From: Methylobacter sp.
Lineage (GTDB): Bacteria; Pseudomonadota; Gammaproteobacteria; Methylococcales; Methylomonadaceae
Direction of reading: 5' to 3'
DNA: 64,000 nt
NCBI GenBank assembly: GCA_036741905.1
Contig: DAINRH010000001.1
Coordinates: 34,617-98,616, forward strand
The notes beneath the pieces are model-generated. The model was not told the origin of the DNA. It did no database searches and was given only the letters and a program-made list of their open reading frames with translations. How positions within the stretch are numbered: position 1 is the stretch's first letter; the number at the start of each line of letters is the position of its first letter. The translations under genes were made by a program, and so were the position numbers. This document shows positions 27,517 to 60,666 of the stretch, piece by piece.

Positions 27517-27554
27517 AAAAGACTCCCAGTAAATAATGGGCGTCATGAAAAAAA

Positions 27555-31223: not shown

Positions 31224-31249
31224 GGTGTACTCCAAAAATAAATTAAGAA

Positions 31250-31369: not shown

Positions 31370-31849
31370 TCAAAATGGTATGTCGTCGTCAAAATCATCG
31401 TAAGCAGGTCCATCATAAGCAGGAGGTGCGGAATGAGAATTAGATTGTGACGAAGTAGGCCCGGTGGAAGATGGCTGCGAAGGTGAAGATCCGGTTGAAG
31501 ATGATCCTGAAGAATCGTTCGGTTTTCCGCCTAACATTTTCATTTCGGTAGCATGGATTTCAGTCGAGTAACGATCCTGGCCGGATTGATCCTGCCATTT
31601 ACGTGTACGAATAGGACCTTCAAACAGAGTTAAAGAGCCTTTTTTAAGATAGTCCCGCGCAATTTCAGCAAGCTTTCCAAAAAGAATAACACGATGCCAT
31701 TCAGTTTTTTCTTTACGTTCACCTGAAACTTTATCTTTCCAGGATTCTGTAGTTGCAAGACTGATAGTGGCTACAGCTTTACCTTCTTGAGTAAAACGGA
31801 TTTCTGGGTCTGAGCCTAAACGGCCGATAACTTGAGCTTTGTTGTACAT
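31370..31849 (-). CDS. ssb: single-stranded DNA-binding protein
   Basis: [39 protein letters not shown]...[16 protein letters not shown] is an OB fold. There is a G/S/P-rich linker and an acidic tail DDFDDDIPF. Confidence 0.95.
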
Positions 31850-35454: not shown

Positions 35455-35655
35455 ATGGCCGAGATGGAAGACCGCTGGTTATCAATTAATGAGATATGCA
35501 AGCACCTCGGTGTCAGCAACGACACTGTGTACAAGTGGATTGATAGGCACGACATGCCAGCTCATCGCATGGGACGCCTCTGGAAATTCAAAAAAGACGA
35601 GGTAGACGATTGGGTGAAAGCTGGTGGGGCTGCTGAGCGCGTAAAGAAAGAATAA
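35455..35655 (+). CDS. excisionase/MerR-type HTH DNA-binding protein immediately upstream of brxA
   Basis: WLSINEICKHLGVSNDTVYKWIDRHDMPAHRMGRLWKFKKDEVDDWV is an HTH_17/Xis-like domain. Confidence 0.7.
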   Translation: MAEMEDRWLSINEICKHLGVSNDTVYKWIDRHDMPAHRMGRLWKFKKDEVDDWVKAGGAAERVKKE

Positions 35656-35662
35656 GATTAGG

Positions 35663-36274
35663 ATGAAGAACGATAGATACAGCATGTCATTTACAACGGG
35701 CGGCCTCTTTTACCGCGAATCGGTTAAACTGGCTGCGTTGTTTATTGAGCTCAATGATTGGAATGCCGTTAGAAACAAAGTCCTTTCTGAGAATCTGTTA
35801 CAGGCGAGAACGCAAAATACGTTGAAACGTGTTTGCCGGGAGATTATTTCAAGGCTAAAAACGCTCGCTCCCCATGAGATCGAATTACTGATACACGGTA
35901 GTTCCCAAGAGCAAAACTATCTTTTGTGGATCGCAGTTTGCCGTCGCTACAAATTCATTGCTGACTTCGCGGTCGAAATTATTCGTGAACGTTACCTTAG
36001 CCTTAAGACAGATCTACATTACGAAGATTTTGATGCATTCTTTAATAGAAAATCAGAGTGGCATCCTGAACTTGATGAAATACAGCCAGCGACTAGAAGT
36101 AAACTGCGCCAGGTGTTGTTCAAAATGTTACGGGAAGCGGAGCTTTTGACTGCCAATAATATAATCAATGCGGCCATGCTGACTCCAAAGCTTGTGGAGA
36201 CTACACTTCTCCATAGCAAGCAGGATCTTTTAATTTTTCCGATATTTGAGTCAGATTTGAAAGGATGGAAATAG
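35663..36274 (+). CDS. brxA: BREX protein BrxA (DUF1819)
   Basis: MSFTTGGLFYRESVKLAALF...LLQARTQNTLKRVCREIISRLKTL, with the expected size and position upstream of brxB and brxC. Confidence 0.8.
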   Translation: MKNDRYSMSFTTGGLFYRESVKLAALFIELNDWNAVRNKVLSENLLQARTQNTLKRVCREIISRLKTLAPHEIELLIHGSSQEQNYLLWIAVCRRYKFIADFAVEIIRERYLSLKTDLHYEDFDAFFNRKSEWHPELDEIQPATRSKLRQVLFKMLREAELLTANNIINAAMLTPKLVETTLLHSKQDLLIFPIFESDLKGWK

Positions 36275-36885
36275 TGGCTTCCAGTATCACAGCGTTAAAC
36301 ATACAAGAAAGCTTTGAGCATCTTCTGACTGTTCTCTCTGGACAAAGATTTTTACAAAAAGAGGGGCTTGGTAACGAGGTTCCATTCTTTATTTGCCCAT
36401 TCGATGTTAGTGTTTCTGTTGATGTCACTAGGCTTCAAAAGCAACTTGTCAATCGTCTTGAACAATCCGGCATTAGGGTGTTGGAAATCAATCTATATGA
36501 TCTCTCCATTGAGATTCTCAAAGACCGTGGCGTTTGGGAGCAGATCATTGAAATGGAACCCACCGTGTCAAAGGACCAACTCAAAGAGTTGCTCCAGGGG
36601 ATTTTGGATCCTGAGACTAATTTAGTACCTGCTATCGCTACCAAGCTCAAGAACAACGAATTTGAAGTGCTCTTTCTGACAGGTGTCGGAGAGGTTTTCC
36701 CTTATATCCGATCGCATCATGTACTCAATAATTTACAGAGTACCGCAAAAGAAAAGCCAACCCTTATGTTTTTTCCTGGAGCCTATACCCACTCCTTGGA
36801 ATCCGGTGCATCACTTGATTTATTCGACAGATTACACGACGACAAGTACTACCGAGCGTTCAACATCTTTCACTGCGAAGCCTAA
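36265..36885 (+). CDS. brxB: BREX protein BrxB (DUF1788)
   Basis: FLQKEGLGNEVPFFICPFD...LFLTGVGEVFPYIRSHHVLNNLQ. Overlaps the brxA end. Confidence 0.8.
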   Translation: MEIVASSITALNIQESFEHLLTVLSGQRFLQKEGLGNEVPFFICPFDVSVSVDVTRLQKQLVNRLEQSGIRVLEINLYDLSIEILKDRGVWEQIIEMEPTVSKDQLKELLQGILDPETNLVPAIATKLKNNEFEVLFLTGVGEVFPYIRSHHVLNNLQSTAKEKPTLMFFPGAYTHSLESGASLDLFDRLHDDKYYRAFNIFHCEA

Positions 36886-36896
36886 ACGAGGGCAAT

Positions 36897-39800
36897 GTGA
36901 CAACTCTTAAAACTATTTTTAAAAAGCCAGTTGACCGCCCGATTGAAGGGGTTATTAAAGCAGATGATGAAGCAAGCCTTCGTCTTGAGATCGAAGAATA
37001 CGTGCTGACCAATGAGGTGGAAAAGCGTCTGGAGTCATTCCTGGATGCTTACAACACCTACGAAGGTGCTAACGGTGTTTGGGTTTCCGGCTTCTTCGGT
37101 TCCGGTAAATCACATCTTTTGAAGATGCTTGCCTTGCTGCTTGAAAATCGTGAGATTGATGGTGTTTCGGCTATCGACCTGTTCTTGCCAAAATGTGTGG
37201 ACAACGAAATTCTTCGTGGTGATCTAAAACGGGCTGTTGCTATTCCCTCGAAAAGCATTCTGTTTAACATTGATCAAAAAGCGGATGTTATCAGTAAGAC
37301 CCAGATTGACGCGCTACTCGCAGTTTTCGTCAAGGTATTTGATGAAACATGCGGTTACTATGGAAAGCAGGGGCACATTGCCCAATTTGAACGCGACTTG
37401 GACAGTCGTGGGTTATATGCGGAGTTCAAGACAGCCTATCAAGTAATATCCGGAAAGGATTGGCATAAAGGACGGGAACAAGCGCTTTTGGAGTCGCAAA
37501 GCATCGCAAAAGCTTATGCCAAGATAGCTGGCGATCCTGAAACATCGGCATTGGGCATTCTCGACAAGTACAGAAGCCAGTATCGAGTGTCTATTGAGGA
37601 TTTTGCGGAGCAGGTCAATGCCTACGTGGATAGGCAATCGCCCGACTTTCGACTGAACTTCTTTGTTGACGAAGTTGGGCAGTATATTGCAGAAAACGTG
37701 AAGTTGATGACTAACCTGCAAACTATTGCCGAGAGCCTTGCCACCAAATGTAGAGGCCGTGCTTGGGTTATTGTGACTGCTCAGGAGGACATGAATACAG
37801 TGTTAGGTGAGATGGGGCACCAGCAGAGCAACGACTTTACCAAGATCCAAGCCCGTTTTGCTAATCGAATGAAGCTCACTAGCGCCGATGTGGCCGAGGT
37901 GATTCAAAAACGTCTATTATTGAAAAATGACGAAGGTGTTCAGCTTTTAACTGATGTCTATCATAATCAATCAAATAATTTTAAAACCCTGTTTGATTTT
38001 GCCGATGGCTCTCAAACCTATCGCAATTTTCAAGATCGCGATCACTTCATTCACAGTTATCCATTCATTCCATACCAGTTCGCCTTATTCCAGGCGGCGA
38101 TTGCCAACCTCTCACAACATAATGCATTTGAGGGTAAACATAGCTCGGTTGGTGAACGATCAATGCTCGGCGTATTCCAACAGGTAGCCATTCAAATCGG
38201 CAGTCATCAAATTGGTCAGCTCGTGACCTTTGATCTTATGTTCGAAGGGATTCGCACGGCTCTGAAGTCCAACATCCAACGAGCCATTCTGCAGTCCGAA
38301 AAACACCTCGATGGCCCATTCGCTATTCGCCTGTTGAAAACTCTTTTTCTGGTCAAATACGTGAAAGAGTTTAAACCGACGCTTCGCAACCTATGCGTAA
38401 TGATGCTGGATGGTTTTAATCAGGATCTGCCTCAACTCCGCAAGTCGGTAGAAGAGGCTCTTCAATTACTCGAACAGCAGACTTACATCCAGCGCAATGG
38501 TGATCTCTACGTATATCTGACCGATGAGGAAAAGGATGTCGAAGAAGAAATTAAGAACACCGATGTTGAATCAACCGATGTTGCCGCTGAACTGGAAAAA
38601 ATCGTCTTTGATCATGTAGTAAAAAACAAAAAAATCCGTTACGAGGATAACGGCCAGGATTATCCCTTCTCAAGAAAACTGGATGACCGCTTGCATGGGC
38701 GCGAATATGAGCTGACCATTCATATCATCAGTCCTTTCCATGAATTTGCCGATAATCAAACTTCGCTGATCATGCATTCTTTTGGGCGAGATGAACTTCT
38801 GGTCGTAATGCCACAAGATGCACGACTTGTACGCGACATCTTGATGTACAAACGCACAGAAAAACATATTCGCCAGAACATCTCTATCACCCAGCAAGAG
38901 GCGGTTAAACGTATTCTCACCGACAAGGGCTTCCAAAATCGGGAGCGTTACACCGAATTACAAAAACGCATTCAAAGCCTGCTGGGCAAAGCCAAACTCT
39001 ATGTCGCAGGCAGTGAAATCGAGATTAGCGGTGAAGACCCACAAACTCGAATCAGTCGTGGTTTTCATGAGCTCATTACCCGAGCCTACCCCAACTTGCG
39101 GATGTTACGAGGAATTAACTACACCGAGAACGATGTCGCCAAATGCCTCAAGTATTCCGAAGATGGATTGTTTGGCAACGATACGACATCATTGGCGGAA
39201 TCAGAGCAAGAGTTATTGGCCTTCATTCAAAGCAACACCCGCAATGGAATTCGTACAACTCTGAAAAGTCTGCTGGATAAATTCGAACGAAAACCTTATG
39301 GCTGGTATTACGCAGCTGTGCTCTGCACACTTGCCAATCTGTGTGCTCGTGGCAAGGTGGAGGTTCGAACCGACGGCAATATTCTTGAGGAGGATGAGCT
39401 TGAACGAGCATTGCGCAACACGCGCGAACAAAGCAATGTCGTGCTGGAACCGCAAGTTGATTTTACGGCATCACAGATGCGCAACCTCAAAGAATTCTAT
39501 GCGGATTTTTTTGATTCCCCACCTCGCGCAAATGAAGCCAAGGCACTTGGCAAAGAAACTGGCGAAGCACTACAGGAATTAATTAATCAACTGGCTCCGC
39601 TGTCGTCCCAGTCATCGCAATATCCCTTTCTGAATGCGCTGACCTTGGTGCATGAGAAATTAAAGGAACTTGGCGGTAAACCCTACGCCTGGTATCTGAC
39701 TGATTTGTTGCGCCAGGAAGATGAGTTACTCGACTTGAAGGAAAAGATCATTGATCCGGTTCGCAAGTTCATGAACGGACCACAGAAGGAAATCTATGAT

Positions 39801-40439
39801 AGTGCCCGACAATTTGTACAGGTACAGAATGCTAATTTCTCTTACATCGAAGGCGATGATTCTTCTCAGATTATAGAAGCACTGGCAGATCCAGAGTGTT
39901 TCAAGGGTAATCGTATGCAGCAGGTGAAGGCTCTTGTTGATACCGTCCAAGTAAAGGTGACAACGCAGATCCTTGCTGAAATCACCCAAGCCATAGATGC
40001 CTCCCAAGCACTCAAGGAGCGTCTGTGCGGTATGACCGAATTTTCTGAGCTCTTAGCAGAGCAACAGGAACAAATAACGCTATCATTCACCAAGTTTGCC
40101 CAGTCTGTTGAATGTCAAAAATTGATAGCCGTGATTCGCGACACCCTGCGACGCTTCGAGGAAACTGACTACCAGTGCCTGCTGTCCAAAATGTCGTCCT
40201 GGACCCAACCAATACCAGAGCCGACTGCATTACAAAACCCAACGCCAGAACCACATGCTGGGGCAGCACCTGTAATTGTTAAGCCCGAACCCCACATTGA
40301 ATATATCCACAGTCGGTCGGTTCGAGTCTCCTTCAACAAGGCCTGGCTTGCAAATGAATCGGATGTAGATCGCTACCTGGAATCCATGCGTGAAGCACTG
40401 CTCGCAGAGATCCGTAGCGGAAAAAGGATTCAAATATGA
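36897..40439 (+). CDS. brxC: BREX ATPase BrxC/PglY
   Basis: 1,180 aa. N-terminus KPVDRPIEGVIKADDE. Walker A GFFGSGKSH at 37089-37115. Walker B FFVDEVGQY. Confidence 0.9.
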   Translation: MTTLKTIFKKPVDRPIEGVIKADDEASLRLEIEEYVLTNEVEKRLESFLDAYNTYEGANGVWVSGFFGSGKSHLLKMLALLLENREIDGVSAIDLFLPKCVDNEILRGDLKRAVAIPSKSILFNIDQKADVISKTQIDALLAVFVKVFDETCGYYGKQGHIAQFERDLDSRGLYAEFKTAYQVISGKDWHKGREQALLESQSIAKAYAKIAGDPETSALGILDKYRSQYRVSIEDFAEQVNAYVDRQSPDFRLNFFVDEVGQYIAENVKLMTNLQTIAESLATKCRGRAWVIVTAQEDMNTVLGEMGHQQSNDFTKIQARFANRMKLTSADVAEVIQKRLLLKNDEGVQLLTDVYHNQSNNFKTLFDFADGSQTYRNFQDRDHFIHSYPFIPYQFALFQAAIANLSQHNAFEGKHSSVGERSMLGVFQQVAIQIGSHQIGQLVTFDLMFEGIRTALKSNIQRAILQSEKHLDGPFAIRLLKTLFLVKYVKEFKPTLRNLCVMMLDGFNQDLPQLRKSVEEALQLLEQQTYIQRNGDLYVYLTDEEKDVEEEIKNTDVESTDVAAELEKIVFDHVVKNKKIRYEDNGQDYPFSRKLDDRLHGREYELTIHIISPFHEFADNQTSLIMHSFGRDELLVVMPQDARLVRDILMYKRTEKHIRQNISITQQEAVKRILTDKGFQNRERYTELQKRIQSLLGKAKLYVAGSEIEISGEDPQTRISRGFHELITRAYPNLRMLRGINYTENDVAKCLKYSEDGLFGNDTTSLAESEQELLAFIQSNTRNGIRTTLKSLLDKFERKPYGWYYAAVLCTLANLCARGKVEVRTDGNILEEDELERALRNTREQSNVVLEPQVDFTASQMRNLKEFYADFFDSPPRANEAKALGKETGEALQELINQLAPLSSQSSQYPFLNALTLVHEKLKELGGKPYAWYLTDLLRQEDELLDLKEKIIDPVRKFMNGPQKEIYDSARQFVQVQNANFSYIEGDDSSQIIEALADPECFKGNRMQQVKALVDTVQVKVTTQILAEITQAIDASQALKERLCGMTEFSELLAEQQEQITLSFTKFAQSVECQKLIAVIRDTLRRFEETDYQCLLSKMSSWTQPIPEPTALQNPTPEPHAGAAPVIVKPEPHIEYIHSRSVRVSFNKAWLANESDVDRYLESMREALLAEIRSGKRIQI

Positions 40440-41500
40440 TCAAACAACTCAAACTTACCAATTTTACTAACTTTAGCAGATTGAGAATTGACTTCTCGCC
40501 CAAGATCAATGTGATTATAGGTGAAAATGGTACCGGCAAAACTCATTTGCTAAAAGCAGCCTATGGCCTTTGTGCCGGAAGCGCTCTGCACAAGAACAAG
40601 CCAAATATCAGCCAGGATGAGATAGAAACTGCTCTTACGACCAGAATGTTACGTCTCTTTATGCCGCTTGATGACAAGCTTGGCAAGATGCACCGACAGG
40701 GTTCTGCTGAACAAGCCCAGTTGCATGTAGATTTTGCTTTAGGACAAAAGTTAACCGTCACGTTCTTCAATAACTCTAAGTCTCTGGTTATTCAAGACAG
40801 CGCCAATTACGAACAATTTCAAGCCGAACCTGTTTTTATCCCAACCAAAGAAGTTCTCTCCTTTATGAAGGGATTCACAAGCCTGTACGATAAATACGAC
40901 CTCTCATTCGACCAGACATATCGTGATGTCTGTGGATTCTTGGATTTACCTGAAGTCCGCGCAGAAACCCTACATGAAAAATCTAAATGGGCGATGAACG
41001 AGATTCAAGGTATCTGCGGTGGACGGTTTATCTTCTATGGTGGCGGCAAAGTTACTTTCAGAACCGACAACGCCGAGTATTCGGCAAATGCGATGGCAGA
41101 AGGATTCCGTAAGGCGGGCATGCTGTCGCGTCTGCTCGAAACAGGCGTCATTCGGCCCGGTGTTAGCGGCCCGCTTTTTTGGGACGAACCAGAATCTAAC
41201 ATGAACCCCAAGCTTATGAAGCTACTGGTGCAGATTCTGCTGGAATTGTCGCGCAACGGGCAACAGATTATCCTTGCCACTCATGACTATGTACTACTCA
41301 AATGGTTCGACCTGCTTATGGACAAGGGTAAGGAGGATCATGTACGTTTCCACGCTCTGTATAAGGACACCGAGACCGGTGCAATTAATGTGGATAGCGT
41401 TGACGATTATCGAGCCATCTCCCCGAATGCAATCGCAGAGACATTCAATGATCTGACAAAGGAGCAGGTCAACCAAAAAATGGGGAGCTTGGGTAAATGA
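40436..41500 (+). CDS. ABC/SMC-head-type ATPase (AAA_21-like) inserted between brxC and pglX
   Basis: Walker A GENGTGKTH, Walker B LFWDEPESNMNP, H-loop ILATHD. ATGA overlaps with both neighbours. Confidence 0.75.
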   Translation: MIKQLKLTNFTNFSRLRIDFSPKINVIIGENGTGKTHLLKAAYGLCAGSALHKNKPNISQDEIETALTTRMLRLFMPLDDKLGKMHRQGSAEQAQLHVDFALGQKLTVTFFNNSKSLVIQDSANYEQFQAEPVFIPTKEVLSFMKGFTSLYDKYDLSFDQTYRDVCGFLDLPEVRAETLHEKSKWAMNEIQGICGGRFIFYGGGKVTFRTDNAEYSANAMAEGFRKAGMLSRLLETGVIRPGVSGPLFWDEPESNMNPKLMKLLVQILLELSRNGQQIILATHDYVLLKWFDLLMDKGKEDHVRFHALYKDTETGAINVDSVDDYRAISPNAIAETFNDLTKEQVNQKMGSLGK

Positions 41501-42021
41501 AGCTGAAGGAACGCGATCTAGAAATTAATTTCACCGATGCCATAGATGGACTTATATTTGACCAAATGAAACCTCACTTACCCGATTTTCATGGCATCGG
41601 TGAAATGCACCGAGTTGACTTCATTGTGGAATTCGATGAGGCCATCGTATTTGTTGAAGTTAAAGATCCAGGTAACCCAAACGCTCAGATAAAAGGGTTG
41701 GAAAAATTTCATGCAGGACTGAATGACGGTACGTTGAGCGCCACATTTTCGGCAAAATTCATCGACTCATTTCTGTATCGTTGGGCAGAGGAAAAAATAA
41801 CCAAACCGGTTTTTTATATTAATCTTGTTACTTTGGATGCGGAGTTGTTACTAAGTTTTTCAGACGAAATAGCCAAAAAGCTCCCACCTATGGGCAAGTC
41901 ACTACCCCGTTGGAAACGTCAGTTAGTTGAAAACTGTCAGGTCTTTAATATCGAGACTTGGAACGAAAATTTCCCGAAGTGGCCCGTCACTCGTCTAGCC
42001 TCGGTCACAGGAGGAACATAA
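41497..42021 (+). CDS. small PD-(D/E)xK-like protein partnered with the ATPase
   Basis: HRVDFIVEFDEAIVFVEVKD (D41...E54-x-K56) has a restriction-endonuclease-fold pattern. 174 aa. Coupled to the upstream ATPase. Confidence 0.5.
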   Translation: MKLKERDLEINFTDAIDGLIFDQMKPHLPDFHGIGEMHRVDFIVEFDEAIVFVEVKDPGNPNAQIKGLEKFHAGLNDGTLSATFSAKFIDSFLYRWAEEKITKPVFYINLVTLDAELLLSFSDEIAKKLPPMGKSLPRWKRQLVENCQVFNIETWNENFPKWPVTRLASVTGGT

Positions 42022-42026
42022 AAATA

Positions 42027-43820
42027 ATGAATACGGCAAAACTAAAAAAATTCGCCCAGTTTGCCCGACGCTGCCTGATTGATCAGATTTCAAGCAAACT
42101 GGAACTGGTACTGGCTGAGGACAGCGCGGCGCGGCGTGAGAGCATGAAAGCTGTCAAAAAGCTTGAAGAACAGATCAGCGAGCATGGCGAAGAACAGGTG
42201 ATCGAAAAGATCGCCTACATCTGGTTCAATCGTTTCTGCGCCTTGCGCTTCATGGATGTAAACAACTATACCCGCATTGGCTTGGTATCGCCCGCCGAAG
42301 GGCAGTTCCAGCCGGAAATTCTGGCTGAAGCCAAGATGGGGCATATCGACGAGGACATGGTGCCTGAAAAAATCCGGCAGCAGATTTTTGCCCTGCTCGG
42401 CGGCACTACGCCCAGCCGCGATCCACAGTCCGAAGCCTACCGCTTATTGGTGGTCGCTTCCTGCAACGATTACCACAAAGCCATGCCTTACCTATTTGAG
42501 CGCATTGCCGACTACACCGAACTTTTAATGCCCGATGACCTGCTTTCGGGTAGTTCCATCCTGGCCTACACCCGCGAAGCCATGACACCGGACATTTGCC
42601 AGGATGTCGAGGTAATCGGTTGGCTTTACCAGTTCTACATCTCTGAAAAGAAGGATGCCGTTTTCGACGGACTAAAGAAAAACAAAAAAATATCCCCGGA
42701 AAATATCCCTGCCGCCACTCAGCTTTTTACCCCACATTGGATTGTGCGCTATTTGGTGGAAAATTGTTTAGGTCGCCTGTGGATGCTCAACCGTCCCAAC
42801 TCGCGGTTGGTTGAAAAGATGGAATATTACATTCAAGCCGAGCAGGTCGAGACTGACTTTTTGCGCATCAACAAGCCTGAAGAGTTGAAACTCTGTGATC
42901 CCGCCTGCGGTTCCGGGCACATGCTGGTATACGCCTTCGATCTGCTTTATGTTATCTATGAAGAAGAAGGCGTTGATCCTGCCGAGATTCCAGAAAAGAT
43001 CCTGACCCATAACCTCTACGGCATCGAAATCGATGAGCGTGCTGGCGAACTGGCTGCGTTTGCCCTGACCATGAAGGCAAGAGCTAAACAGCGTCGTTTC
43101 TTTCGCAAGCCGGTACAACCTAATATCTGTGTGCTGGAGAACATCCATTTCGACGAAGCGGAAATCAACGAGTACATGGATTTCGTTGGGCAGGATATTT
43201 TTACGCTGGGATTGAAAGCCACCCTGAGCCAGTTTGAAGAGGCCGACAACTTTGGCTCTTTAATTCGCCCTGAAATGACCGACGTGGAAGGAACGCTATA
43301 TATTCTTGAAGCAAAGGATGCCGCCGGACATCTGTTTCTAAGCCTGACCCATCAGAAGGTGCTGCAAGCGTTAAGACAAGCCGACTATCTCAGTCCGAAA
43401 TATCATGTGGTGATTGCCAATCCGCCTTATATGAGTGGCAAAGGCATGAATGGCAGATTGGGGGCATGGGCCAAAGATAATTATCCCAATAGTAAATCGG
43501 ATCTTTTTGCCATGTTCATCGAGCGCAATCTGGAACTCTCAGTTAAACAAGGCGCTGTTGGCATGATTACCATGCAGAGTTGGATGTTTCTGTCTTCATA
43601 CGAGAAACTGCGTGATAGCATCCTCGATAAATATACAATTCTTTCCATGGCACATTTAGGCGCACGAGCCTTTGATAGTATTGGCGGCGAAGTGGTTTCG
43701 ACAACGGCTTTCGTTTTGGAAAATGCCCATCATCCTGAATACAAAGGAGCTTATGTTCGTTTGGTTGATGGCAATTCCGAAGCTGAGAAACAAGCCGCTT
43801 TCAAAGCGGCACTTGGATAA
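42027..43820 (+). CDS. pglX: BREX methyltransferase PglX, N-terminal half (methyltransferase domain) as a separate ORF
   Basis: MNTAKLKKFAQFARRCLIDQ...IAYIWFNRFCALRFMDVN is the PglX N-terminus. NPPY lies at 43419-43430. AGGAGG precedes the ATG at 42027. The ORF stops after ...AYVRLVDGNSEAEKQAAFKAALG. Confidence 0.85.
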   Translation: MNTAKLKKFAQFARRCLIDQISSKLELVLAEDSAARRESMKAVKKLEEQISEHGEEQVIEKIAYIWFNRFCALRFMDVNNYTRIGLVSPAEGQFQPEILAEAKMGHIDEDMVPEKIRQQIFALLGGTTPSRDPQSEAYRLLVVASCNDYHKAMPYLFERIADYTELLMPDDLLSGSSILAYTREAMTPDICQDVEVIGWLYQFYISEKKDAVFDGLKKNKKISPENIPAATQLFTPHWIVRYLVENCLGRLWMLNRPNSRLVEKMEYYIQAEQVETDFLRINKPEELKLCDPACGSGHMLVYAFDLLYVIYEEEGVDPAEIPEKILTHNLYGIEIDERAGELAAFALTMKARAKQRRFFRKPVQPNICVLENIHFDEAEINEYMDFVGQDIFTLGLKATLSQFEEADNFGSLIRPEMTDVEGTLYILEAKDAAGHLFLSLTHQKVLQALRQADYLSPKYHVVIANPPYMSGKGMNGRLGAWAKDNYPNSKSDLFAMFIERNLELSVKQGAVGMITMQSWMFLSSYEKLRDSILDKYTILSMAHLGARAFDSIGGEVVSTTAFVLENAHHPEYKGAYVRLVDGNSEAEKQAAFKAALG

Positions 43821-43823
43821 ACC

Positions 43824-45311
43824 ATGGCCTTTATCCTAGAAACCCTGCTGCAACAGCCTGAAGGCAAAACGCTCGAATTCAAGCGAGATTTATCCTCGCC
43901 TAAACCGCTGTTAAAAACCTTGGTGGCATTTGCCAATACCGCCGGCGGTCGTCTAGTCATTGGTGTGACAGATAATCATCAACTCATCGGAGTTGATGAT
44001 CCGTTAACTGAAGAAGAACGTATCTGTAACATGATTGCCGATGCCATTTCGCCCCGTCTGGTACCGAATGTCGAAATGATCACGATTGAAGGCAAGACCT
44101 TATTGGTGATTGAGGTTTATCTCAGCAATTCGCGCCCACATTGGCTGAATACACAAGGCTCTGAGCTAGGCGTCTATGTCCGGTTGGGTTCTACCAATCG
44201 GCAGGCGGATCGTGAGTTGATCGCTGAGTTGCAGCGTTCAGTGGATGGCATTGCCTTTGATGAAATGCCTATGCCGGAACTTTCCATTGATGACCTGGAT
44301 CTGGCCTCTGCTCAAGCTCTGTTTGGTGATACACGACGCTTGGATGAGCAAACATTAATCACCTTAAAATTACTCACCGACTATCAGGGTCGACGGGTGC
44401 CGACCAAAGGCGCTGTCTTGCTTTTTGGTAAACAGCGCAGCTTTCACTTTGCTGACGCATGGATACAGTGTGGACGTTTTTTTGGTACCGAAAAAATAGA
44501 TATTTTTGATCATATCGATATCAATGCGCCACTGCCCAAAGCGGTGGATGAGGTCATGCTGTTTTTAAAGAAACATGCGTTTCGCGGTGCTGATTTATCT
44601 GAAATTCGCCGCAAAGATGTCTGGAGCATTCCGCTGGGCATCTTACGCGAAGCGGTCATCAATGCTATTGTTCATGCCGATTATTCCCAGCGCGGCGCTC
44701 CGATTCGGATCGTGTTTTTGGATGATCGCATTGAAATCGAGAATCCCGGCCTGTTCCTGCCTGGATTAACCTTGGAAGACATCAAACAGGGTACCTCTAA
44801 AATTCGTAACACCGTGATTGCCCGCGTCTTTAGGGAGTTACATTTAATCGAGCAGTGGGGCACCGGAGTACGTCGCATTTTTACCGAAGCCAAAGCGCTT
44901 GGGCTACCCGAACCTCAACTTATCGAAACGGGCATGAGGGTGCGCTTTATCATCTCGCTGCTGGAACCGATTCCGTTGCTGCGCACTACAAAACACGTAG
45001 ACGGTACAGTCAACGAACAAATCGATTCACGGCTAGAGTCACGGCTAGAGTCACGGCTAGAGTCAACGCTCGCCGCTAAAGTATTGTTGAAGCTGCATGA
45101 GCAAGAAACCGGTAAATCCGCACTCGCTCAACATCTAGGACACAAAACGGTTTCCGGCGAACTTCATAAACAAGTCAAACGATTACTGGAGTTGGAACTG
45201 ATTGAAATGACCCTGCCTGATAAACCCAATAGCCGTTTGCAGAAGTATCGGCTAACCGATAGCGGCCAGGACTTGATTAACGCAATATTGGATGAAAACA
45301 GACAGTCATGA
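43824..45311 (+). CDS. AlbA_2 (Schlafen-like) plus HATPase_c_4 plus wHTH putative regulator (RecG-like annotation class)
   Basis: PEGKTLEFKRDLSSPKPLLKTLVAFANTAGGRLVIGV is an AlbA_2 domain. REAVINAIVHADYSQRGAPIRIVFLDDRIEIENPG is HATPase_c_4. It starts 3 nt after the pglX-N stop. Confidence 0.75.
   Translation: MAFILETLLQQPEGKTLEFKRDLSSPKPLLKTLVAFANTAGGRLVIGVTDNHQLIGVDDPLTEEERICNMIADAISPRLVPNVEMITIEGKTLLVIEVYLSNSRPHWLNTQGSELGVYVRLGSTNRQADRELIAELQRSVDGIAFDEMPMPELSIDDLDLASAQALFGDTRRLDEQTLITLKLLTDYQGRRVPTKGAVLLFGKQRSFHFADAWIQCGRFFGTEKIDIFDHIDINAPLPKAVDEVMLFLKKHAFRGADLSEIRRKDVWSIPLGILREAVINAIVHADYSQRGAPIRIVFLDDRIEIENPGLFLPGLTLEDIKQGTSKIRNTVIARVFRELHLIEQWGTGVRRIFTEAKALGLPEPQLIETGMRVRFIISLLEPIPLLRTTKHVDGTVNEQIDSRLESRLESRLESTLAAKVLLKLHEQETGKSALAQHLGHKTVSGELHKQVKRLLELELIEMTLPDKPNSRLQKYRLTDSGQDLINAILDENRQS
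45027..45066 (+). repeat. 12-nt tandem repeat TCACGGCTAGAG, three full copies plus a partial fourth (encodes SRLESRLESRLES)
   Basis: Three exact units at 45027-45062 and a partial fourth, in frame within 43824..45311. Confidence 0.85.
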
Positions 45312-54802: not shown

Positions 54803-56869
54803 ATGAACGAACTTGACCAGAAAATAAATACACACTTCGCGGGGCTTGTTGTCCGAAAGGATCTTGTTAAAACCGTCAAGGGTAATGCGATTGTACCTTC
54901 CTATGTTCTTGAGTATTTGTTAGGCCAGTACTGCGCAACCAGCGACGAAGCCTCCATTCAGACGGGCATTGAAACTGTTAAGGAAATACTGCGTAAGCAC
55001 TATGTACACCGGAATGAAGCTGGCTTGATTCGTTCTCATATTAAGGAAAAGGGACGCTATAAGGTCATCGACAAGATCAGCGTAGCATTGAATGACAATG
55101 CAGATGTTTACGAGGCTGCTTTTTCTAATCTTGGCATCAAAAGAGTATTGGTTGATTCTCGAACGGTGAAAGCACATCCGAAACTTTTGGTCAGCGGTGT
55201 CTGGTGTATTGCAGATCTTGAATACGAGTTTTCCGAAGAAAAAGATGACAGTCCTTGGATTCTATCGTCGCTTAAACCTATTCAATTATCGCACTTCGAT
55301 TTTGATGGCTATGTGGCGGCTCGTAAACAATTCACAACCGATGAATGGATTGATCTGCTTGTTCAGAGCATTGGCTTTAATCCGGAATTGTTTGGCAAAC
55401 GCAGTAAGTTGACTCAACTCGTTCGTCTTATCCCTTTTTGCGAGCGTAATTATAATCTTATCGAACTGGGTCCCAAAGGAACGGGGAAGTCGCATATCTA
55501 TTCAGAGTTTTCTCCTCATGGCATTCTTATATCAGGCGGCGAAGTTTCAGTTCCCAAGCTGTTTGTTAATAATTCATCCGGAAAAATCGGCCTGGTTGGG
55601 TACTGGGATGTAGTGGGGTTTGACGAGTTTGCCGGCAAACAAAAAAGGGTAGAAAAAGCACTTGTCGATATTATGAAAAATTATATGGCTAACAAGTCTT
55701 TTTCGCGTGGTGTTGAAACCTTCGGTGCAGAAGCATCAATGGTTTTCATCGGCAACACTCAGCACACTGTTCCCTATATGCTGAAGCATGCCGATTTATT
55801 CGATGAGCTACCCGATAAGTTCTATGACTCGGCATTCCTTGACCGAATCCATTATTACATCCCCGGTTGGGAAGTGGATATTATTCGTGGTGAGATGTTT
55901 TCCAAAAACTATGGCTTTGTGGTGGATTACCTTGCCGAAATTCTTCGGGCATTGCGTAACCACGACTATTCAGACCGTTATAAAGAGCACTTTTCTTTAT
56001 CTTCTGATCTATCGACTCGGGACAGGGATGGAATAAACAAAACTTTTTCCGGGCTAATGAAAATCCTATACCCTCAAGGCGAGGCCTCTAAGGATGAGAT
56101 TGAAGAAATTCTTAAGTTTGCTATTGAAGGTCGCAAGCGTATCAAAGACCAATTGATGCGCATTGATTCCACCTACCCGGATGTGAATTTCACCTACATG
56201 GACCAGTCTGGTCAAACCCATTCTGTTAAGACACTGGAGGAAGAAGAATACCCGCATTATTACTATAAGACAGCTGTTGATACTGCGACAGGCATAGCTG
56301 ATACAGACAGTGATCCACAAGGAACTCCAGTAGCCGAATCCTTTGTCAAGGAACAGCATCTGACCTTTCAAGAAAATCAGAAAGGAATATCGTTCGATGC
56401 CTTGTTTGGCGCTTATCTGCGAGGCGCAAGTAAAATAACTATTACTGATCCCTATATCCGTCTGCCTTACCAAGTGCGTAATTTTATGGAGTTCCTCGAA
56501 ACGGTCGTGAAGTACAAGTCACAGGACGAAGAAGTCACCGTTCACCTAGTGACGTCAGAAGACGATTTCAAAGCTGAACAGCAGCAAGAGAGTTTTGAAA
56601 AGATAAAGGAATCCTGTAGCGCAGTCGGCATTGACTTTAGCTGGGAATTTGATGGAACAGGGAGCATTCAAACCCGCCACATAGTGACTGACCACGGCTG
56701 GAAAATCTTACTGGATTGTGGCCTCGATGTCTTTCAGAACTATGAAATGAATGATGCTTTCACCTTTGCCAACCGCCTACAGAAATTTAGGGCTTGTAAG
56801 GCATTTGAGGTGACTTTTATCACAAATGGAATAATGTCAACAAATACGGACGGACAAGAGCATGAGTGA
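54803..56869 (+). CDS. brxL: BrxL (BREX AAA+ protein) with an atypical MIT_C/PLD-like C-terminal domain
   Basis: FAGLVVRKDLVKTVKGNAIVPSYVLEYLLGQYCATSDEASI is the BrxL N-domain. ELGPKGTGKSH is the P-loop. The C-terminal 166 aa (56369-56866) align with my recollection of the human MITD1 C-terminal domain (ITDPYIR...NFMEFLE...HIVTDHGWKILLDCGLDVFQ). Confidence 0.8.
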   Translation: MNELDQKINTHFAGLVVRKDLVKTVKGNAIVPSYVLEYLLGQYCATSDEASIQTGIETVKEILRKHYVHRNEAGLIRSHIKEKGRYKVIDKISVALNDNADVYEAAFSNLGIKRVLVDSRTVKAHPKLLVSGVWCIADLEYEFSEEKDDSPWILSSLKPIQLSHFDFDGYVAARKQFTTDEWIDLLVQSIGFNPELFGKRSKLTQLVRLIPFCERNYNLIELGPKGTGKSHIYSEFSPHGILISGGEVSVPKLFVNNSSGKIGLVGYWDVVGFDEFAGKQKRVEKALVDIMKNYMANKSFSRGVETFGAEASMVFIGNTQHTVPYMLKHADLFDELPDKFYDSAFLDRIHYYIPGWEVDIIRGEMFSKNYGFVVDYLAEILRALRNHDYSDRYKEHFSLSSDLSTRDRDGINKTFSGLMKILYPQGEASKDEIEEILKFAIEGRKRIKDQLMRIDSTYPDVNFTYMDQSGQTHSVKTLEEEEYPHYYYKTAVDTATGIADTDSDPQGTPVAESFVKEQHLTFQENQKGISFDALFGAYLRGASKITITDPYIRLPYQVRNFMEFLETVVKYKSQDEEVTVHLVTSEDDFKAEQQQESFEKIKESCSAVGIDFSWEFDGTGSIQTRHIVTDHGWKILLDCGLDVFQNYEMNDAFTFANRLQKFRACKAFEVTFITNGIMSTNTDGQEHE

Positions 56870-59429
56870 TTTTTCTGCACCACTTTCCAAATGGTTTTCC
56901 GAACGTCCGAAATGGTTGCAAATGGCAGCCAAACGCCTTCTGGAGCAAGATAGCATAGATATTCCAAATCTTGCCGTGTTGTGCCAACAAGAAGCGAAAG
57001 GCCAACTCGTCAGGTCTGATTGCACTCTCCCTGCCAATGCTTTCGATGCTGATTCCTCAGGAACCATTCGTTTGTGCTCGCTCGACAATATTGAAGGAGT
57101 AAACGCACTGGCCCCGCGAAAATCTCTTGAGTTTGGCAAAAGTAATATCGCTGTCGTTTATGGTCATAATGGTTCAGGTAAGTCTGGCTACGTTCGACTA
57201 CTAAAACATATTTGCGGAGCCCGTTACCTTGGCACGCTGCATCGTAATGTCTACACTGCCGCACCTGGAGTACAGAAGGCATCGATCACATTTGAGAAAA
57301 ACGGAACTACAATTTGTCATGAATGGGCTGGCCAGGGATTTCTTGATGACCTTAGAAGCGTGGATATTTTCGACACCTCTTTTGGCCGAGTTTTTATAAA
57401 CAGCGAAGACGAGGTGAGCTATGAGCCTCCGGTATTGTTGTTTTTTAGTTCTCTCATCACGATATGCGAAAAGGTCTCTGAAATATTGGATGCTGAGGCC
57501 GCTCGGTACCCATCAAAAAAGCCAACTATTTCAAGTGTGCTGAAGATGACCTCAGAAGGTATCTGGTTCGATAGTGTATCCAGCAAAACCTCCTCGACTG
57601 AGGTTACGCAACACTGTTCATTTACAGTTGCAAACGAAAAAGAGCTTCAGGAACTTCAACAGCGCCTTGCCGAGCAAGCACCATCAGATAAGGCGAAGCA
57701 GTTAAGAAACCAAAAACAGTATATAGATTCTCTTGTTGAAGAGGCGGAGAAATATCTTAATCAACTTTCCGATGATAATTGTCGGCAAATTATCGCGGTG
57801 AAGAAAAATGCCATTTTTAAGAAGAATGCCGCTGAAGTAGCTGCACAACAAGTATTTATTGGAAGCCACCTCGAAGGTATCGGTTCAGATGTATGGAAAG
57901 AGCTTTGGGCTGCTGCCAGAAATTACTCAACAACTTTGGCCTATAGAGATCAAGATTACCCTCATGTTGCTGACGACTCCCGTTGCGTACTATGTCATCA
58001 GACGCTTCCTCCAGAAGCCAAAGCTAGGCTTCTCTCCTTTGAAGAGTTTGTGAAAGGAGAAATGCAAAGGGCATCTGCTAACGCCATTAAGGAATTTAAT
58101 ACCGCAATTCAAGCAATTAAAGACGTCCCTACAGTAGACTCGCTAAAAACAAGAGCCGATGCTGCGGGGTTACAACAAAATGAAATCACCATTCCGTTGT
58201 ACGAGTTCTTCTCTGGTTTACAGAAGCGGAAGGAGGCACTACCAGATCTTGAATCCGACGACGGACTCCCCCCCATCACACAGAAACCTGCATGGATTGA
58301 CGAGGCCCGCAAACTATCTGCCGGTTGTGGCGAACGTGCAGAAAATTACGACAAGGATGCCCAGAACGAAAACCGTGACGGACTAAAGGTGAAATTGAAT
58401 AGTCTTCTGGCAAAAAAATGGCTTTCTGAGCATCGTACCACCGCAGTCGAGCAAGAAATCGAAAGGCTAAAACTACAGGATTTAATTCAAGCAGCCAAAA
58501 AATCAACTAACACTAGATCTTTGTCCCAAAAAAAGGGTGAATTGGCTGAAGCGCTTATTACAGATGCTTTCGTCCAGCGTTTTAATAATGAACTTAAAAG
58601 TTTGGGAGCAGACCGGGTCAAAGTAGAGCTGGTGAAGTCGAAGGTTTCGAAGGGGCGGGTTCTTCACAAACTTCAGCTTCGCGGTGCATCTGATAGCTCA
58701 TTGTCTGAAGTGTTAAGTGAGGGCGAAAGTAGAATTGTATCCATCGCTGCTTTTCTGGCTGATGTCACTGGTAAGAGCAATCATGCCCCCTTTATCTTTG
58801 ATGACCCAGTATCATCACTCGACCAGGATTTTGAGGAGGCAGTGGTACAGCGGCTGTTAGGTATTTCCTTCGATAAACAGGTCATAATTTTTACCCACCG
58901 CTTATCGCTATTGGGCACGATTAGACATTTTGCAGACAAAAAATCAATCAAGCCTGACATAATAAGCATCCGGTCGACCGACTGGGGCACTGGCGAACCA
59001 GCTCCGATTCCGCTTTCGCAAAGTGATATCAAAACAGCGTTAAATATTCTGATTAACCAGCGGTTTCCTCTTGCGAAGAAGGCCAACGATGCTGGTGAAT
59101 TCGAAATGGCGGAAATTTATATCAAATCTATTTGCAGCGATTTTCGAACACTCGTTGAAAGAGCGATTGAAAATGATCTGCTTTGTGGCGTGGTGCAGAG
59201 ATTTCAGCGACCGGTTCACACTTTAAGGCTAAAAGACTTAGCCAAGCTCAAAGACACAGATTGCGAGAAACTTGATTCCCTCATGACCACATACTCTGGT
59301 TTTGAACATTCACAGCCATCTGAGTCACCGATTGAATTGCCGACGCCTGAAGCGCTTCTTGTTGATCTCTTGACCTTGAAAGATTGGCGTGAAGAGTACA
59401 TAAATCGGCCTGTACCTCCAGTATCATGA
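56862..59429 (+). CDS. AAA_13-family ATPase (RloC/PrrC-like architecture)
   Basis: Walker A GHNGSGKSG at 57162. The Cys pair CVLCHQ at 57984 lies in a predicted coiled-coil insert. Walker B FIFDDPVSSLD, followed by FTHR. The start overlaps the brxL stop by 8 nt. Confidence 0.65.
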   Translation: MSDFSAPLSKWFSERPKWLQMAAKRLLEQDSIDIPNLAVLCQQEAKGQLVRSDCTLPANAFDADSSGTIRLCSLDNIEGVNALAPRKSLEFGKSNIAVVYGHNGSGKSGYVRLLKHICGARYLGTLHRNVYTAAPGVQKASITFEKNGTTICHEWAGQGFLDDLRSVDIFDTSFGRVFINSEDEVSYEPPVLLFFSSLITICEKVSEILDAEAARYPSKKPTISSVLKMTSEGIWFDSVSSKTSSTEVTQHCSFTVANEKELQELQQRLAEQAPSDKAKQLRNQKQYIDSLVEEAEKYLNQLSDDNCRQIIAVKKNAIFKKNAAEVAAQQVFIGSHLEGIGSDVWKELWAAARNYSTTLAYRDQDYPHVADDSRCVLCHQTLPPEAKARLLSFEEFVKGEMQRASANAIKEFNTAIQAIKDVPTVDSLKTRADAAGLQQNEITIPLYEFFSGLQKRKEALPDLESDDGLPPITQKPAWIDEARKLSAGCGERAENYDKDAQNENRDGLKVKLNSLLAKKWLSEHRTTAVEQEIERLKLQDLIQAAKKSTNTRSLSQKKGELAEALITDAFVQRFNNELKSLGADRVKVELVKSKVSKGRVLHKLQLRGASDSSLSEVLSEGESRIVSIAAFLADVTGKSNHAPFIFDDPVSSLDQDFEEAVVQRLLGISFDKQVIIFTHRLSLLGTIRHFADKKSIKPDIISIRSTDWGTGEPAPIPLSQSDIKTALNILINQRFPLAKKANDAGEFEMAEIYIKSICSDFRTLVERAIENDLLCGVVQRFQRPVHTLRLKDLAKLKDTDCEKLDSLMTTYSGFEHSQPSESPIELPTPEALLVDLLTLKDWREEYINRPVPPVS

Positions 59430-60655: not shown

Positions 60656-60666
60656 CGAGGTAAGGA

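What the first reader, a model, noticed from the sequence alone, without database searches (positions are those of the whole stretch)
35455..59429. Type 1 BREX operon with extra genes at every junction after brxC, all translationally coupled
The canonical order brxA-brxB-brxC-pglX-pglZ-brxL is intact, but extra genes occupy every junction after brxC:
- brxC | ATPase plus nuclease | pglX-N
- pglX-N | AlbA_2, SIR2, HerA | pglX-C
- pglX-C | YhcG-like nuclease | pglZ
- pglZ | GxxExxY | brxL
- brxL | AAA_13 ATPase

Most boundaries are 4-8 nt start/stop overlaps or gaps under 30 nt. The locus therefore reads as one long transcription unit mixing at least four putative immunity mechanisms. Embedded single genes in BREX are known (for example GmrSD-type BrxU), but this density, including a split core gene, is unusual. 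It suggests BREX operons act as a scaffold that captures defence cassettes.
Basis: partly seen in the sequence, partly recalled or inferred. Interest (0 to 1): 0.7.

Follow-up and report, generated by a model that had tools for sequence, protein, structure and literature searches.

The report
BREX operon packed with defence cargo
This is a complete type 1 BREX anti-phage operon on a mobile element. Other defence genes fill every junction after brxC, which is a published pattern, but here the methyltransferase gene pglX is also cleanly split in two at a site that recurs in many bacteria as an extra cargo slot.

Summary
Sixteen same-strand genes run from 35663 to 60655, and a seventeenth (sbcC-like) runs off the window. 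They are separated by overlaps of 1-10 nt or gaps of 3-54 nt.

The core is BREX-1: brxA, brxB, brxC, pglX, pglZ, brxL. The cargo is:
- HEC-02 (ABC ATPase plus NERD nuclease)
- a Schlafen/AlbA_2-HATPase-wHTH gene
- SIR2-HerA
- a YhcG nuclease (PDC-S02)
- a GxxExxY nuclease bracketed by inverted repeats

The "scaffold that captures cassettes" idea is supported. A relative with 94-98% nucleotide identity lacks or swaps four of these modules exactly at start and stop codons. The idea is already published, however (Payne et al. 2024; NAR 2026).

The less ordinary part is pglX. It is cut about 15-20 residues before the interdomain hinge, with no sequence lost, and both halves are intact. pglX-N is under purifying selection (dN/dS 0.125). 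The same cut site recurs in about 10% of related BREX-1 loci and carries varied systems there: SIR2-HerA, Shedu, DRT, HEC-02, Fic, Helicase-DUF2290. I found no paper describing this.

Four occupied internal junctions was the maximum among 58 loci. A single transcript and activity of the split PglX remain untested.

The parts
35663..36274 (+). brxA (203 aa)
   Evidence: PF08849 BrxA 6.6e-55; PADLOC BrxA 1e-86 over the full model
36265..36885 (+). brxB (206 aa); overlaps brxA by 10 nt
   Evidence: PF08747 4e-43; PADLOC BrxB 1e-69
36897..40439 (+). brxC (1180 aa); Walker A GFFGSGKS at residue 65
   Evidence: PADLOC BrxC 1901 bits; Pfam BrxC domains
40436..41500 (+). Cargo 1a: HEC-02A-type OLD/ABC ATPase (354 aa); its ATG overlaps the brxC stop (ATGA)
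   Evidence: PADLOC HEC-02A 9.7e-119; AAA_21/AAA_15. Absent from L084, where the brxC stop overlaps the pglX-N start
41497..42021 (+). Cargo 1b: HEC-02B NERD-like PD-(D/E)xK partner (174 aa)
   Evidence: PADLOC HEC-02B 2.1e-69; E-V-K motif present
42027..43820 (+). pglX-N (597 aa): helical bundle plus gamma-class N6A methyltransferase, with DPACGSG and NPPY motifs
   Evidence: NCBIfam BREX_1_MTaseX positions 1-643 of 1210, 6e-232; aligns to Salmonella PglX 8c45 residues 67-633; motifs; dN/dS 0.125 against L084
43824..45311 (+). Cargo 2: Schlafen/AlbA_2 + HATPase_c_4 + wHTH (Fic-like_C) protein (495 aa)
   Evidence: Pfam 1e-24, 5e-26 and 3e-10; this architecture is reported next to BREX cores in at least 1017 taxa (PMC12839542); retained in L084
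45308..46726 (+). Cargo 3a: SIR2 (472 aa); TTNYD motif
   Evidence: PADLOC SIR2 2.4e-165; PF13289
46723..48885 (+). Cargo 3b: HerA (720 aa); Walker A GNTGSGKS; its last 8 nt overlap the pglX-C start
   Evidence: PADLOC HerA 9.5e-270; DUF87
48878..50677 (+). pglX-C (599 aa): TRD, spacer helices and C-terminal region, i.e. the specificity part of PglX
   Evidence: NCBIfam BREX_1_MTaseX positions 647-1209, 4e-190; aligns to 8c45 residues 639-1217; exact protein P0001 is on 33 contigs
50685..51842 (+). Cargo 4: YhcG/DUF1016 PD-(D/E)XK nuclease (385 aa)
   Evidence: PF06250 2e-55; PADLOC PDC-S02 8e-126
51842..54343 (+). pglZ (833 aa)
   Evidence: PF08665 6e-67; PADLOC PglZ 1124 bits
54342..54789 (+). 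Cargo 5: GxxExxY/PDDEXK_3 gene (54371-54748, 125 aa) bracketed by a 30-nt inverted repeat (54342-54371 / 54760-54789) built of CACGGAA-type 9-mers
   Evidence: TIGR04256 2e-40; PF13366 4e-41; inverted repeat 87% complementary; the flanks close the RNA fold, z = -3.0; the segment 54344-54802 is missing from L084
54803..56869 (+). brxL (688 aa); Walker A GPKGTGKS
   Evidence: PF13337 2e-131; PADLOC BrxL 1185 bits
56862..59429 (+). Cargo 6a: AAA_13 ABC ATPase (855 aa), a PDC-S06 candidate
   Evidence: PADLOC PDC-S06 1015 bits; PF13166 5e-15; replaced by a different 740-aa AAA_13 gene in L084
59426..60655 (+). Cargo 6b: SbcD-like nuclease (409 aa); overlaps the AAA_13 stop by 4 nt.
   Evidence: Metallophos + SbcD_C; E 7e-79 to E. 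coli SbcD 6s6v over residues 1-401
60667..64000 (+). Cargo 6c: SbcC-like ATPase, truncated by the window end (1224 aa in L001)
   Evidence: AAA_23 1e-22; gene call in L001 with SbcC_Walker_B

Best explanation
This is a functional type 1 BREX operon carried on a conjugative or integrative element. Its inter-gene junctions serve as cargo slots for independent defence modules.

The modules are HEC-02 (ABC ATPase plus NERD nuclease), a Schlafen-like AlbA_2-HATPase-wHTH protein, SIR2-HerA (NAD+-depleting abortive infection), a YhcG nuclease, a GxxExxY mini-cassette, and an AAA_13/SbcD/SbcC block.

They are probably read from the brxA-proximal promoter as one long message. They would act as a second layer when phage inhibitors disable BREX. 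Both points are inferred.

Cargo turns over by recombination between related BREX loci, with the conserved core genes acting as homology arms. That is why breakpoints fall at start and stop codons (shown by comparison with L084).

pglX is not destroyed. It is divided about 15-20 residues upstream of the interdomain hinge into a methyltransferase subunit (pglX-N) and a specificity subunit (pglX-C). The two presumably reassemble non-covalently, much as HsdM and HsdS do in type I R-M systems (inferred). The gap between them is a third, less common cargo slot.
For: - All six BREX-1 core families are present with full-length HMM matches and intact Walker A, DPACGSG and NPPY motifs.
- The split loses and duplicates nothing. 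pglX-N covers BREX_1_MTaseX profile positions 1-643 and pglX-C covers 647-1209. On Salmonella PglX 8c45 the halves align to residues 67-633 and 639-1217. The hinge there is residues 654-659 (PMC11341690).
- Selection in the split state: dN/dS for pglX-N against L084 is 0.125, comparable with brxC (0.123), pglZ (0.060) and brxL (0.071).
- The same cut site recurs with different cargo:
  - P. aeruginosa L002: HEC-02AB plus SIR2-HerA
  - L006: SIR2-HerA
  - L086: Shedu plus SIR2-HerA
  - L030 and L054: Shedu plus DRT RT-nitrilase
  - L014: Helicase-DUF2290 plus a HerA C-terminal remnant
  - L017: AlbA_2 plus Fic
  - L023 and L051: HEC-02AB
  - L084: AlbA_2 plus two unknown genes
- About 105 of the 120 best pglX-C homologue clusters are stand-alone proteins of about 560-680 aa.
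- Cassette turnover is seen at codon-exact boundaries against L084.
- SIR2-HerA is independent of BREX. Of 80 close HerA relatives, 14 are BREX-embedded and 19 are free-standing with more than 4 kb of BREX-free flank on both sides.
- There is no enrichment of promoter-like sites and no junction terminators.
- The context is a mobile element: Toprim primase, CobT/VWA-DUF3150-MoxR cluster, YqaJ, RecT, SSB, a group II intron and a weak Rep3 match.
Against: - There are no methylome, transcript or phage-challenge data for this or any split locus.
- Went et al. could not express the Salmonella PglX C-terminal domain on its own (PMC11341690), so a free C half is not trivially stable.
- dN/dS for pglX-C is uninformative. 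Its TRD part is saturated or swapped, and its 3' part differs from L084 at only 9 sites.
- Three related loci (L018, L037, L078) have in-frame stops in pglX, so pglX does sometimes decay.
- The promoter and terminator scans use simple E. coli-type consensus patterns.
- The defence function of the AlbA_2, YhcG, GxxExxY and AAA_13/SbcCD genes is only predicted.
Confidence: 0.7

Rival explanations
1. The BREX system is dead. The AlbA_2/SIR2/HerA insertion disrupted pglX, leaving two gene fragments, and only the inserted cassettes protect the cell.
For: - Insertion into a core gene is the classic route to inactivation.
- Some relatives carry in-frame stops in pglX (L018, L037, L078).
- The Salmonella C-terminal domain could not be expressed alone.
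Against: - Both halves are complete ORFs with their own start codons and Shine-Dalgarno-like sequences. No residue of the BREX_1_MTaseX profile is lost.
- pglX-N has dN/dS 0.125 in the split state.
- The same cut site is kept in lineages whose halves are only 50-75% identical, and in about 105 distinct stand-alone pglX-C clusters. Decaying pseudogenes would not stay intact that long.
- All other core genes are intact.
Confidence: 0.12
2. The inserted genes are dedicated accessory subunits that have co-evolved with this BREX lineage, not independent systems. For example, SIR2-HerA would be wired to PglX-C as an effector arm.
For: - herA ends 4-8 nt inside the pglX-C start in the window, L002, L086, L088, L156 and L163. 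The GATGAGTAA overlap survives even where the cargo has been replaced (L014, L084).
- 12 of the 14 BREX-embedded SIR2-HerA pairs sit directly upstream of pglX-C.
- The AAA_13-SbcD-SbcC block follows brxL in several phyla.
Against: - Near-identical backbones carry different cargo (L084).
- The same slot holds Shedu, DRT, Fic, HEC-02 or Helicase-DUF2290 elsewhere.
- 19 close SIR2-HerA relatives are free-standing.
- Most related BREX-1 loci have no cargo in that slot.
- SIR2-HerA and HEC-02 work on their own according to published work.
Confidence: 0.13
3. The arrangement is an assembly chimera or a collapsed mixture of several strains' defence islands.
For: The source is probably metagenomic or a draft assembly, and defence islands are mosaic.
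Against: - Identical proteins are recorded on 33 contigs up to 220 kb.
- An independent Logan assembly gives the same order.
- Isolate genomes (P. aeruginosa) show the same split architecture.
- Reading frames and overlaps are continuous across every junction.
Confidence: 0.02

Closest known systems
Type 1 BREX with embedded defence genes (pEFER BREX with BrxU; Salmonella BREX island; 'guilt-by-embedding', Payne et al. bioRxiv 10.1101/2024.01.29.577857; auxiliary and backup effectors, PMC12839542)
   Same: - The order brxA-brxB-brxC-pglX-pglZ-brxL, with foreign defence genes on the same strand between core genes.
- HEC-02, PDC-S02 (YhcG) and PDC-S06 (AAA_13) were defined from exactly such embedded positions.
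- Schlafen-HK-wHTH genes and OLD-ABC plus nuclease dyads are already catalogued next to BREX cores.
   Different: - Four of four internal junctions after brxC are occupied, plus a 3' block. That was the maximum among 58 compared loci.
- pglX itself is divided, and SIR2-HerA sits inside it. Neither paper mentions SIR2 or a split PglX.
Type I restriction-modification HsdM + HsdS (with PrrC embedded in EcoprrI)
   Same: - Methyltransferase and target-recognition functions lie on separate polypeptides that must assemble.
- An ABC-ATPase defence gene embedded in a modification operon has a classical precedent in PrrC.
   Different: - Here the two parts are halves of a protein that is normally a single chain of about 1200 aa.
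- The cut lies 15-20 residues before the hinge, so pglX-C keeps the last strand of the methyltransferase-domain region.
- Assembly of the halves has not been shown.
SIR2-HerA (Gao et al. 2020; Shen et al. 2023) defence system
   Same: A two-gene SIR2 then HerA pair with a 4-nt overlap, full-length PADLOC matches, the TTNYD motif and Walker A.
   Different: It is located inside a split pglX rather than free-standing. About 18% of its 80 closest metagenomic relatives are BREX-embedded.
PARIS (AriA/AriB), which is embedded between brxC and pglX in some BREX loci
   Same: An OLD/ABC ATPase plus a small nuclease partner at the brxC|pglX junction.
   Different: The partner is a 174-aa NERD-like PD-(D/E)xK protein (HEC-02B), not a DUF4435/TOPRIM AriB. 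AriA models score far lower (1.8e-20) than HEC-02A (9.7e-119).

Membership tests
BREX type 1 | All six core genes brxA, brxB, brxC, pglX, pglZ and brxL are present on one strand in canonical order | tested here: met
   Pfam, PADLOC and NCBIfam full-length matches. The order is intact, with pglX in two pieces.
BREX type 1 | PglX is a gamma-class N6-adenine methyltransferase with SAM-binding (GxG) and NPPY motifs plus a C-terminal TRD | tested here: met
   DPACGSG at residue 291 and NPPY at residue 465 of pglX-N. pglX-C aligns to 8c45 residues 639-1217. The protein is encoded as two polypeptides.
BREX type 1 | Host methylation at a non-palindromic 6-bp motif and exclusion of unmethylated phage | not testable with these tools
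   This needs a methylome and phage assays.
BREX type 1 | PglX as a single polypeptide of about 1200 aa (the usual state) | tested here: not met
   Stop at 43820 and restart at 48878, with 5057 nt of cargo between. 64 fused PglX ORFs were seen in the related genome loci.
SIR2-HerA | Adjacent SIR2-domain and HerA (DUF87) ATPase genes | tested here: met
   PADLOC SIR2 2e-165 and HerA 1e-269; 4-nt overlap; Walker A and TTNYD present.
SIR2-HerA | NADase activity and abortive infection on phage challenge | not testable with these tools
   Biochemical and phage assays are required.
HEC-02 (Payne et al. 2024) | An ABC ATPase (HEC-02A) followed by a NERD-like PD-(D/E)xK protein (HEC-02B) | tested here: met
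   PADLOC 9.7e-119 and 2.1e-69 over full models; ATGA overlap; ExK motif.
PARIS | An AriB DUF4435/TOPRIM effector next to the AriA ATPase | tested here: not met
   The 174-aa partner has no Pfam or TOPRIM hit and matches HEC-02B only.
PDC-S02 / PDC-S06 (PADLOC candidates) | Sequence membership of the YhcG-type and AAA_13-type candidate families | tested here: met
   PDC-S02 8e-126; PDC-S06 1015 bits. The defence function of these families is itself untested.
RloC/PrrC anticodon nucleases | An AAA_13 ATPase with a C-terminal anticodon-nuclease region | tested here: inconclusive
   PF13166 matches only model positions 11-582 of 713. The C-terminal 160 aa are unmatched. There is no PDB relative beyond a weak AriA hit.
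SbcCD | An SbcD Mre11-type phosphoesterase next to an SbcC Rad50-type ATPase | tested here: met
   SbcD matches E. coli SbcD at 7e-79. The SbcC-like ORF has AAA_23 and, in L001, SbcC_Walker_B. It is truncated by the window end.

The most novel reading that the evidence does not exclude
A sizeable lineage of BREX-1 systems runs on a natural two-subunit PglX: a methyltransferase subunit plus a stand-alone specificity subunit.

The cut lies at a fixed linker about 15-20 residues before the hinge, and it creates a third cargo hotspot inside the enzyme gene. The start of the specificity gene is translationally tied to the 3' end of whatever cargo occupies the slot. A fossil herA 3' end (GATGAGTAA) persists after cargo replacement.

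Specificity (TRD) and cargo can therefore be exchanged as neighbouring modules. The split may also make BREX activity depend on read-through of the embedded abortive-infection genes.
Probability: 0.45. Interest if true: 0.65.

Novelty: new variant of a known kind. Interest (0 to 1): 0.5.

Why it matters
Embedding of defence genes in BREX is established, so the locus as a whole is mainly an extreme example.

The split pglX is of practical interest:
- It suggests PglX can work as separate methyltransferase and specificity subunits. That would simplify re-targeting of BREX, where only the roughly 600-aa specificity gene would need swapping.
- It would give structural biologists naturally soluble C-terminal halves, which could not be produced from the Salmonella protein.
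- It marks a third place to look when mining BREX loci for new defence genes. For example, the 608-aa and 161-aa genes of L084 have no family match.

The window/L084 pair is a ready-made natural experiment. The backbone is the same while four cargo modules differ.

Tried and rejected
- **Close DNA relatives in E. coli genomes:** none. In plasmids there were only 75-79% matches over parts of pglX. The organism stays unidentified. The best relatives are Methylomicrobium and Methyloprofundus MAGs, and cluster look-up gave no names.
- **PARIS as the identity of the ATPase/nuclease pair:** rejected in favour of HEC-02.
- **RloC identity for the AAA_13 protein:** not supported.
- **A single origin of the split:** NJ trees show split loci scattered among fused ones for the pglX-C 3' part and only partly clustered for pglX-N. 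The trees are crude and recombination is evident, so origin counts are not reliable.
- **dN/dS for pglX-C:** uninformative. The TRD part is saturated and the 3' part has only 9 differences.
- **The near-exclusively half-length top hits:** I first read these as meaning that most PglX are split. The genome scan (7 of 72 loci) and my own manual reading of the table of 50%-identity representatives (about a dozen stand-alone C halves among 150) show that the split is a minority state.
- **Literature searches:** nothing for split PglX, PglX+SIR2+HerA, or BREX+SbcCD.
- **Structure prediction of the two halves as a complex:** not possible, because the tool takes single chains from the window only.
Full report
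**What is there.** The + strand from 35663 to the window end carries an unbroken array of 17 genes.

The six type 1 BREX core families are all present in canonical order with full-length matches:
- brxA 35663-36274
- brxB 36265-36885
- brxC 36897-40439
- pglX in two pieces, 42027-43820 and 48878-50677
- pglZ 51842-54343
- brxL 54803-56869

Between them lie the following cargo genes:
- an OLD/ABC ATPase plus a 174-aa NERD-like protein (40436-42021; PADLOC HEC-02A 1e-118, HEC-02B 2e-69)
- an AlbA_2/HATPase_c_4/wHTH protein (43824-45311)
- SIR2 (45308-46726; 2e-165) and HerA (46723-48885; 1e-269)
- a YhcG nuclease (50685-51842; PDC-S02)
- a GxxExxY/PDDEXK_3 gene (54371-54748)

After brxL come an AAA_13 ATPase (56862-59429; PDC-S06), then a genuine SbcD homologue (59426-60655; 7e-79 to E. 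coli SbcD), then an SbcC-like gene that runs off the window.

Junction distances in gene order are -10, +11, -4, -4, +5, +3, -4, -4, -8, +7, -1, +27, +54, -8, -4 and +11 nt. Walker A motifs are present in BrxC, BrxL, HerA, the HEC-02A ATPase and the AAA_13 protein. The PglX DPACGSG and NPPY motifs and the SIR2 TTNYD motif are also present.

Promoter-like sites are fewer than in shuffled sequence: 16 against 29, and 4 against 17. No convincing + strand terminator sits at a junction.

**Context.** Upstream lie a Toprim primase, a CobT/VWA-DUF3150-MoxR cluster, YqaJ, a RecT fragment, SSB, a group II intron reverse transcriptase and a weak Rep3 match. These are typical of a conjugative or integrative element. 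There is no close DNA match in E. coli genomes or plasmids. The organism is unknown, and the nearest loci are Methylococcales MAGs.

**The pglX split.**
- The N piece covers positions 1-643 and the C piece 647-1209 of the 1210-position NCBIfam BREX-1 PglX model.
- On Salmonella PglX (8c45) they align to residues 67-633 and 639-1217.
- That structure has its interdomain hinge at residues 654-659, the conserved IPGxPIAYW stretch. The methyltransferase fold spans 227-661 and the TRD 662-849 (PMC11341690).
- The cut is therefore a clean break in a short linker 15-20 residues before the hinge. Nothing is lost or duplicated.
- In fused relatives the linker reads ...AEKNDAIREAAKNPDCGWLFRAS... In split loci the N piece ends after the AEK-helix, and the C piece begins with a 13-20-residue head (MS[N/D/E]...) before FFRAS.

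**Is the split an accident?** No.
- The P. aeruginosa loci L002 and L003 have brxC | pglX-N | HEC-02AB | SIR2 | HerA | pglX-C | pglZ | brxL | AAA_13 | SbcD | SbcC. Their pglX halves are 59-72% identical to the window's.
- In a scan of one genome per species, 7 of 72 related loci with both halves visible are split at the same place.
- More split loci came from protein look-ups (L084, L086) and from the metagenome scan (12 loci).
- The slot holds varied cargo:
  - SIR2-HerA alone
  - Shedu plus SIR2-HerA
  - Shedu plus a DRT RT-nitrilase
  - HEC-02AB
  - AlbA_2 plus Fic
  - Helicase-DUF2290
  - two genes with no family match
- About 105 of the 120 best pglX-C homologue clusters are stand-alone proteins of about 560-680 aa covering 96-100% of the query.
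- In a 50%-identity representative library, my own manual reading of the table finds about a dozen of the top 150 to be stand-alone C halves, with the rest fused or truncated.
- Overall the split is a minority state (about 10-14%), but it is well populated and old.
- dN/dS for pglX-N between the window and L084, both split, is 0.125. That is like brxC (0.123), pglZ (0.060) and brxL (0.071).
- NJ trees do not make the split loci one clade. Split loci also occur in three different subtypes of the methyltransferase C-terminal region. I read this as recombinational spread, several origins, or both. The trees are too crude to decide.
- A herA 3' end overlapping the pglX-C start (GATGAGTAA) persists as a fossil where the cargo has been replaced. 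L014 keeps an ORF 59% identical to HerA residues 636-720, and L084 keeps the last roughly 30 nt.

**Cassette turnover.** L084 matches the window at 94-98% nucleotide identity through brxA-brxC, pglX-N plus AlbA_2, the 3' third of pglX-C plus YhcG plus pglZ, brxL, and SbcD/SbcC. It differs as follows:
- It lacks HEC-02AB. There the brxC stop overlaps the pglX-N start as TGATG.
- It lacks the 459-nt GxxExxY segment.
- It carries 608-aa and 161-aa genes instead of SIR2-HerA, and has a different TRD.
- It has an unrelated 740-aa AAA_13 gene.

Every breakpoint falls at a start or stop codon of a core gene.

Across related loci, junction occupancy is 31 of 64 for brxC|pglX, 33 of 81 for pglX|pglZ (often BrxU-like HEC-05), 11 of 76 within pglX, and 5 of 72 for pglZ|brxL. 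These counts include four loci fetched by other routes. Of 58 loci with all four junctions visible, 22 had none occupied, 14 had one, 18 had two, 3 had three and 1 had four. The last is this locus.

**Are the inserts autonomous?** Of the 80 closest metagenomic HerA relatives, 14 are BREX-embedded. Nineteen are free-standing SIR2-HerA pairs with more than 4 kb of BREX-free flank on each side. The remaining contigs are too short to tell. HEC-02 protects on its own in published tests. This argues against obligate integration with BREX. Even so, the recurrent herA/pglX-C coupling leaves room for regulatory linkage.

**Comparison with the literature.**
- Payne et al. (bioRxiv 10.1101/2024.01.29.577857) showed that BREX, DISARM, Hma and type I R-M systems frequently hold embedded defence genes. 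They derived HEC-02 and the PDC candidates from such positions.
- PMC12839542 catalogues nucleases, OLD-ABC dyads and Schlafen-HK-wHTH genes within BREX cores in thousands of taxa.
- Neither text contains 'SIR2' or 'split'. Targeted searches for a split PglX, or for BREX with SbcCD, returned nothing.
- PADLOC does hold half-length PglX models (PDLC02525 and PDLC02516), so such genes were seen but apparently not discussed.

**Verdict.** The locus is a real and unusually crowded example of a published phenomenon. Its scaffold interpretation is right but not new. The part that goes beyond the literature I could search is the recurrent, precisely placed division of pglX into methyltransferase and specificity genes with a cargo slot between them. 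Function of the split enzyme, co-transcription, and the defence roles of several inserts are inferred, not shown.

Noticed in passing
window 54342-54789; also L019 around 2450-3010 and 9700-10020, and L046 around 11700-12290: The GxxExxY/PDDEXK_3 gene is bracketed by a 30-nt inverted repeat made of 9-nt CACGGAA-type units. The bracketed segment is exactly what a 94-98% identical relative lacks. GxxExxY genes at other BREX junctions in Nitrosomonas and a Desulfuromonadaceae MAG have the same kind of flanks. It looks like a miniature self-contained (MITE- or IVS-like) cassette, and I found no paper describing this.
   Followed up: partly
window 56862-64000; L002, L008, L010, L011, L025, L084: An AAA_13 ATPase, a full-length SbcD and an SbcC follow brxL with 4-11-nt spacing in this window. 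They also follow brxL in BREX loci of Pseudomonas, Desulforhopalus, Alcanivorax, Desulfobulbus and a Verrucomicrobiota MAG, at 66-76% protein identity (AAA_13 and SbcD matched at protein level; SbcC seen where gene calls exist). This accessory SbcCD travels with BREX. No paper linking BREX and SbcCD was found.
   Followed up: partly
L084 7743-10008: In the close relative, the intra-pglX slot holds a 608-aa and a 161-aa protein with no Pfam or PADLOC match. By position they are candidates for an undescribed defence module.
   Followed up: partly
L014 3500-3790: The Halomonas sp. PR-M31 locus keeps a 96-aa ORF that is a remnant of the HerA C-terminus, directly upstream of pglX-C. The slot now holds Helicase-DUF2290. 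This is a fossil of cargo replacement.
   Followed up: partly
L005 and L035: Two Rhodobacterales-type BREX loci carry two tandem full-length pglX copies. L012 and L089 carry a short duplicated pglX 3' fragment next to an AlbA_2-SIR2-HerA cassette placed between pglX and pglZ.
   Followed up: no
window 28509-30254 (- strand): There is a group II intron-type reverse transcriptase/maturase with an HNH domain. Nearby are a short RecT-family ORF (30846-31268), SSB (31370-31849) and YqaJ (26515-27558). Its position suggests the intron may interrupt the recombination module, but I did not examine this.
   Followed up: no
window 3334-10452 (- strand): A 2372-aa ORF has only weak Ig-like (Big_9) and GH85_C matches. 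It lies in a region of higher G+C (about 0.50-0.55) than the BREX island (about 0.43-0.49).
   Followed up: no
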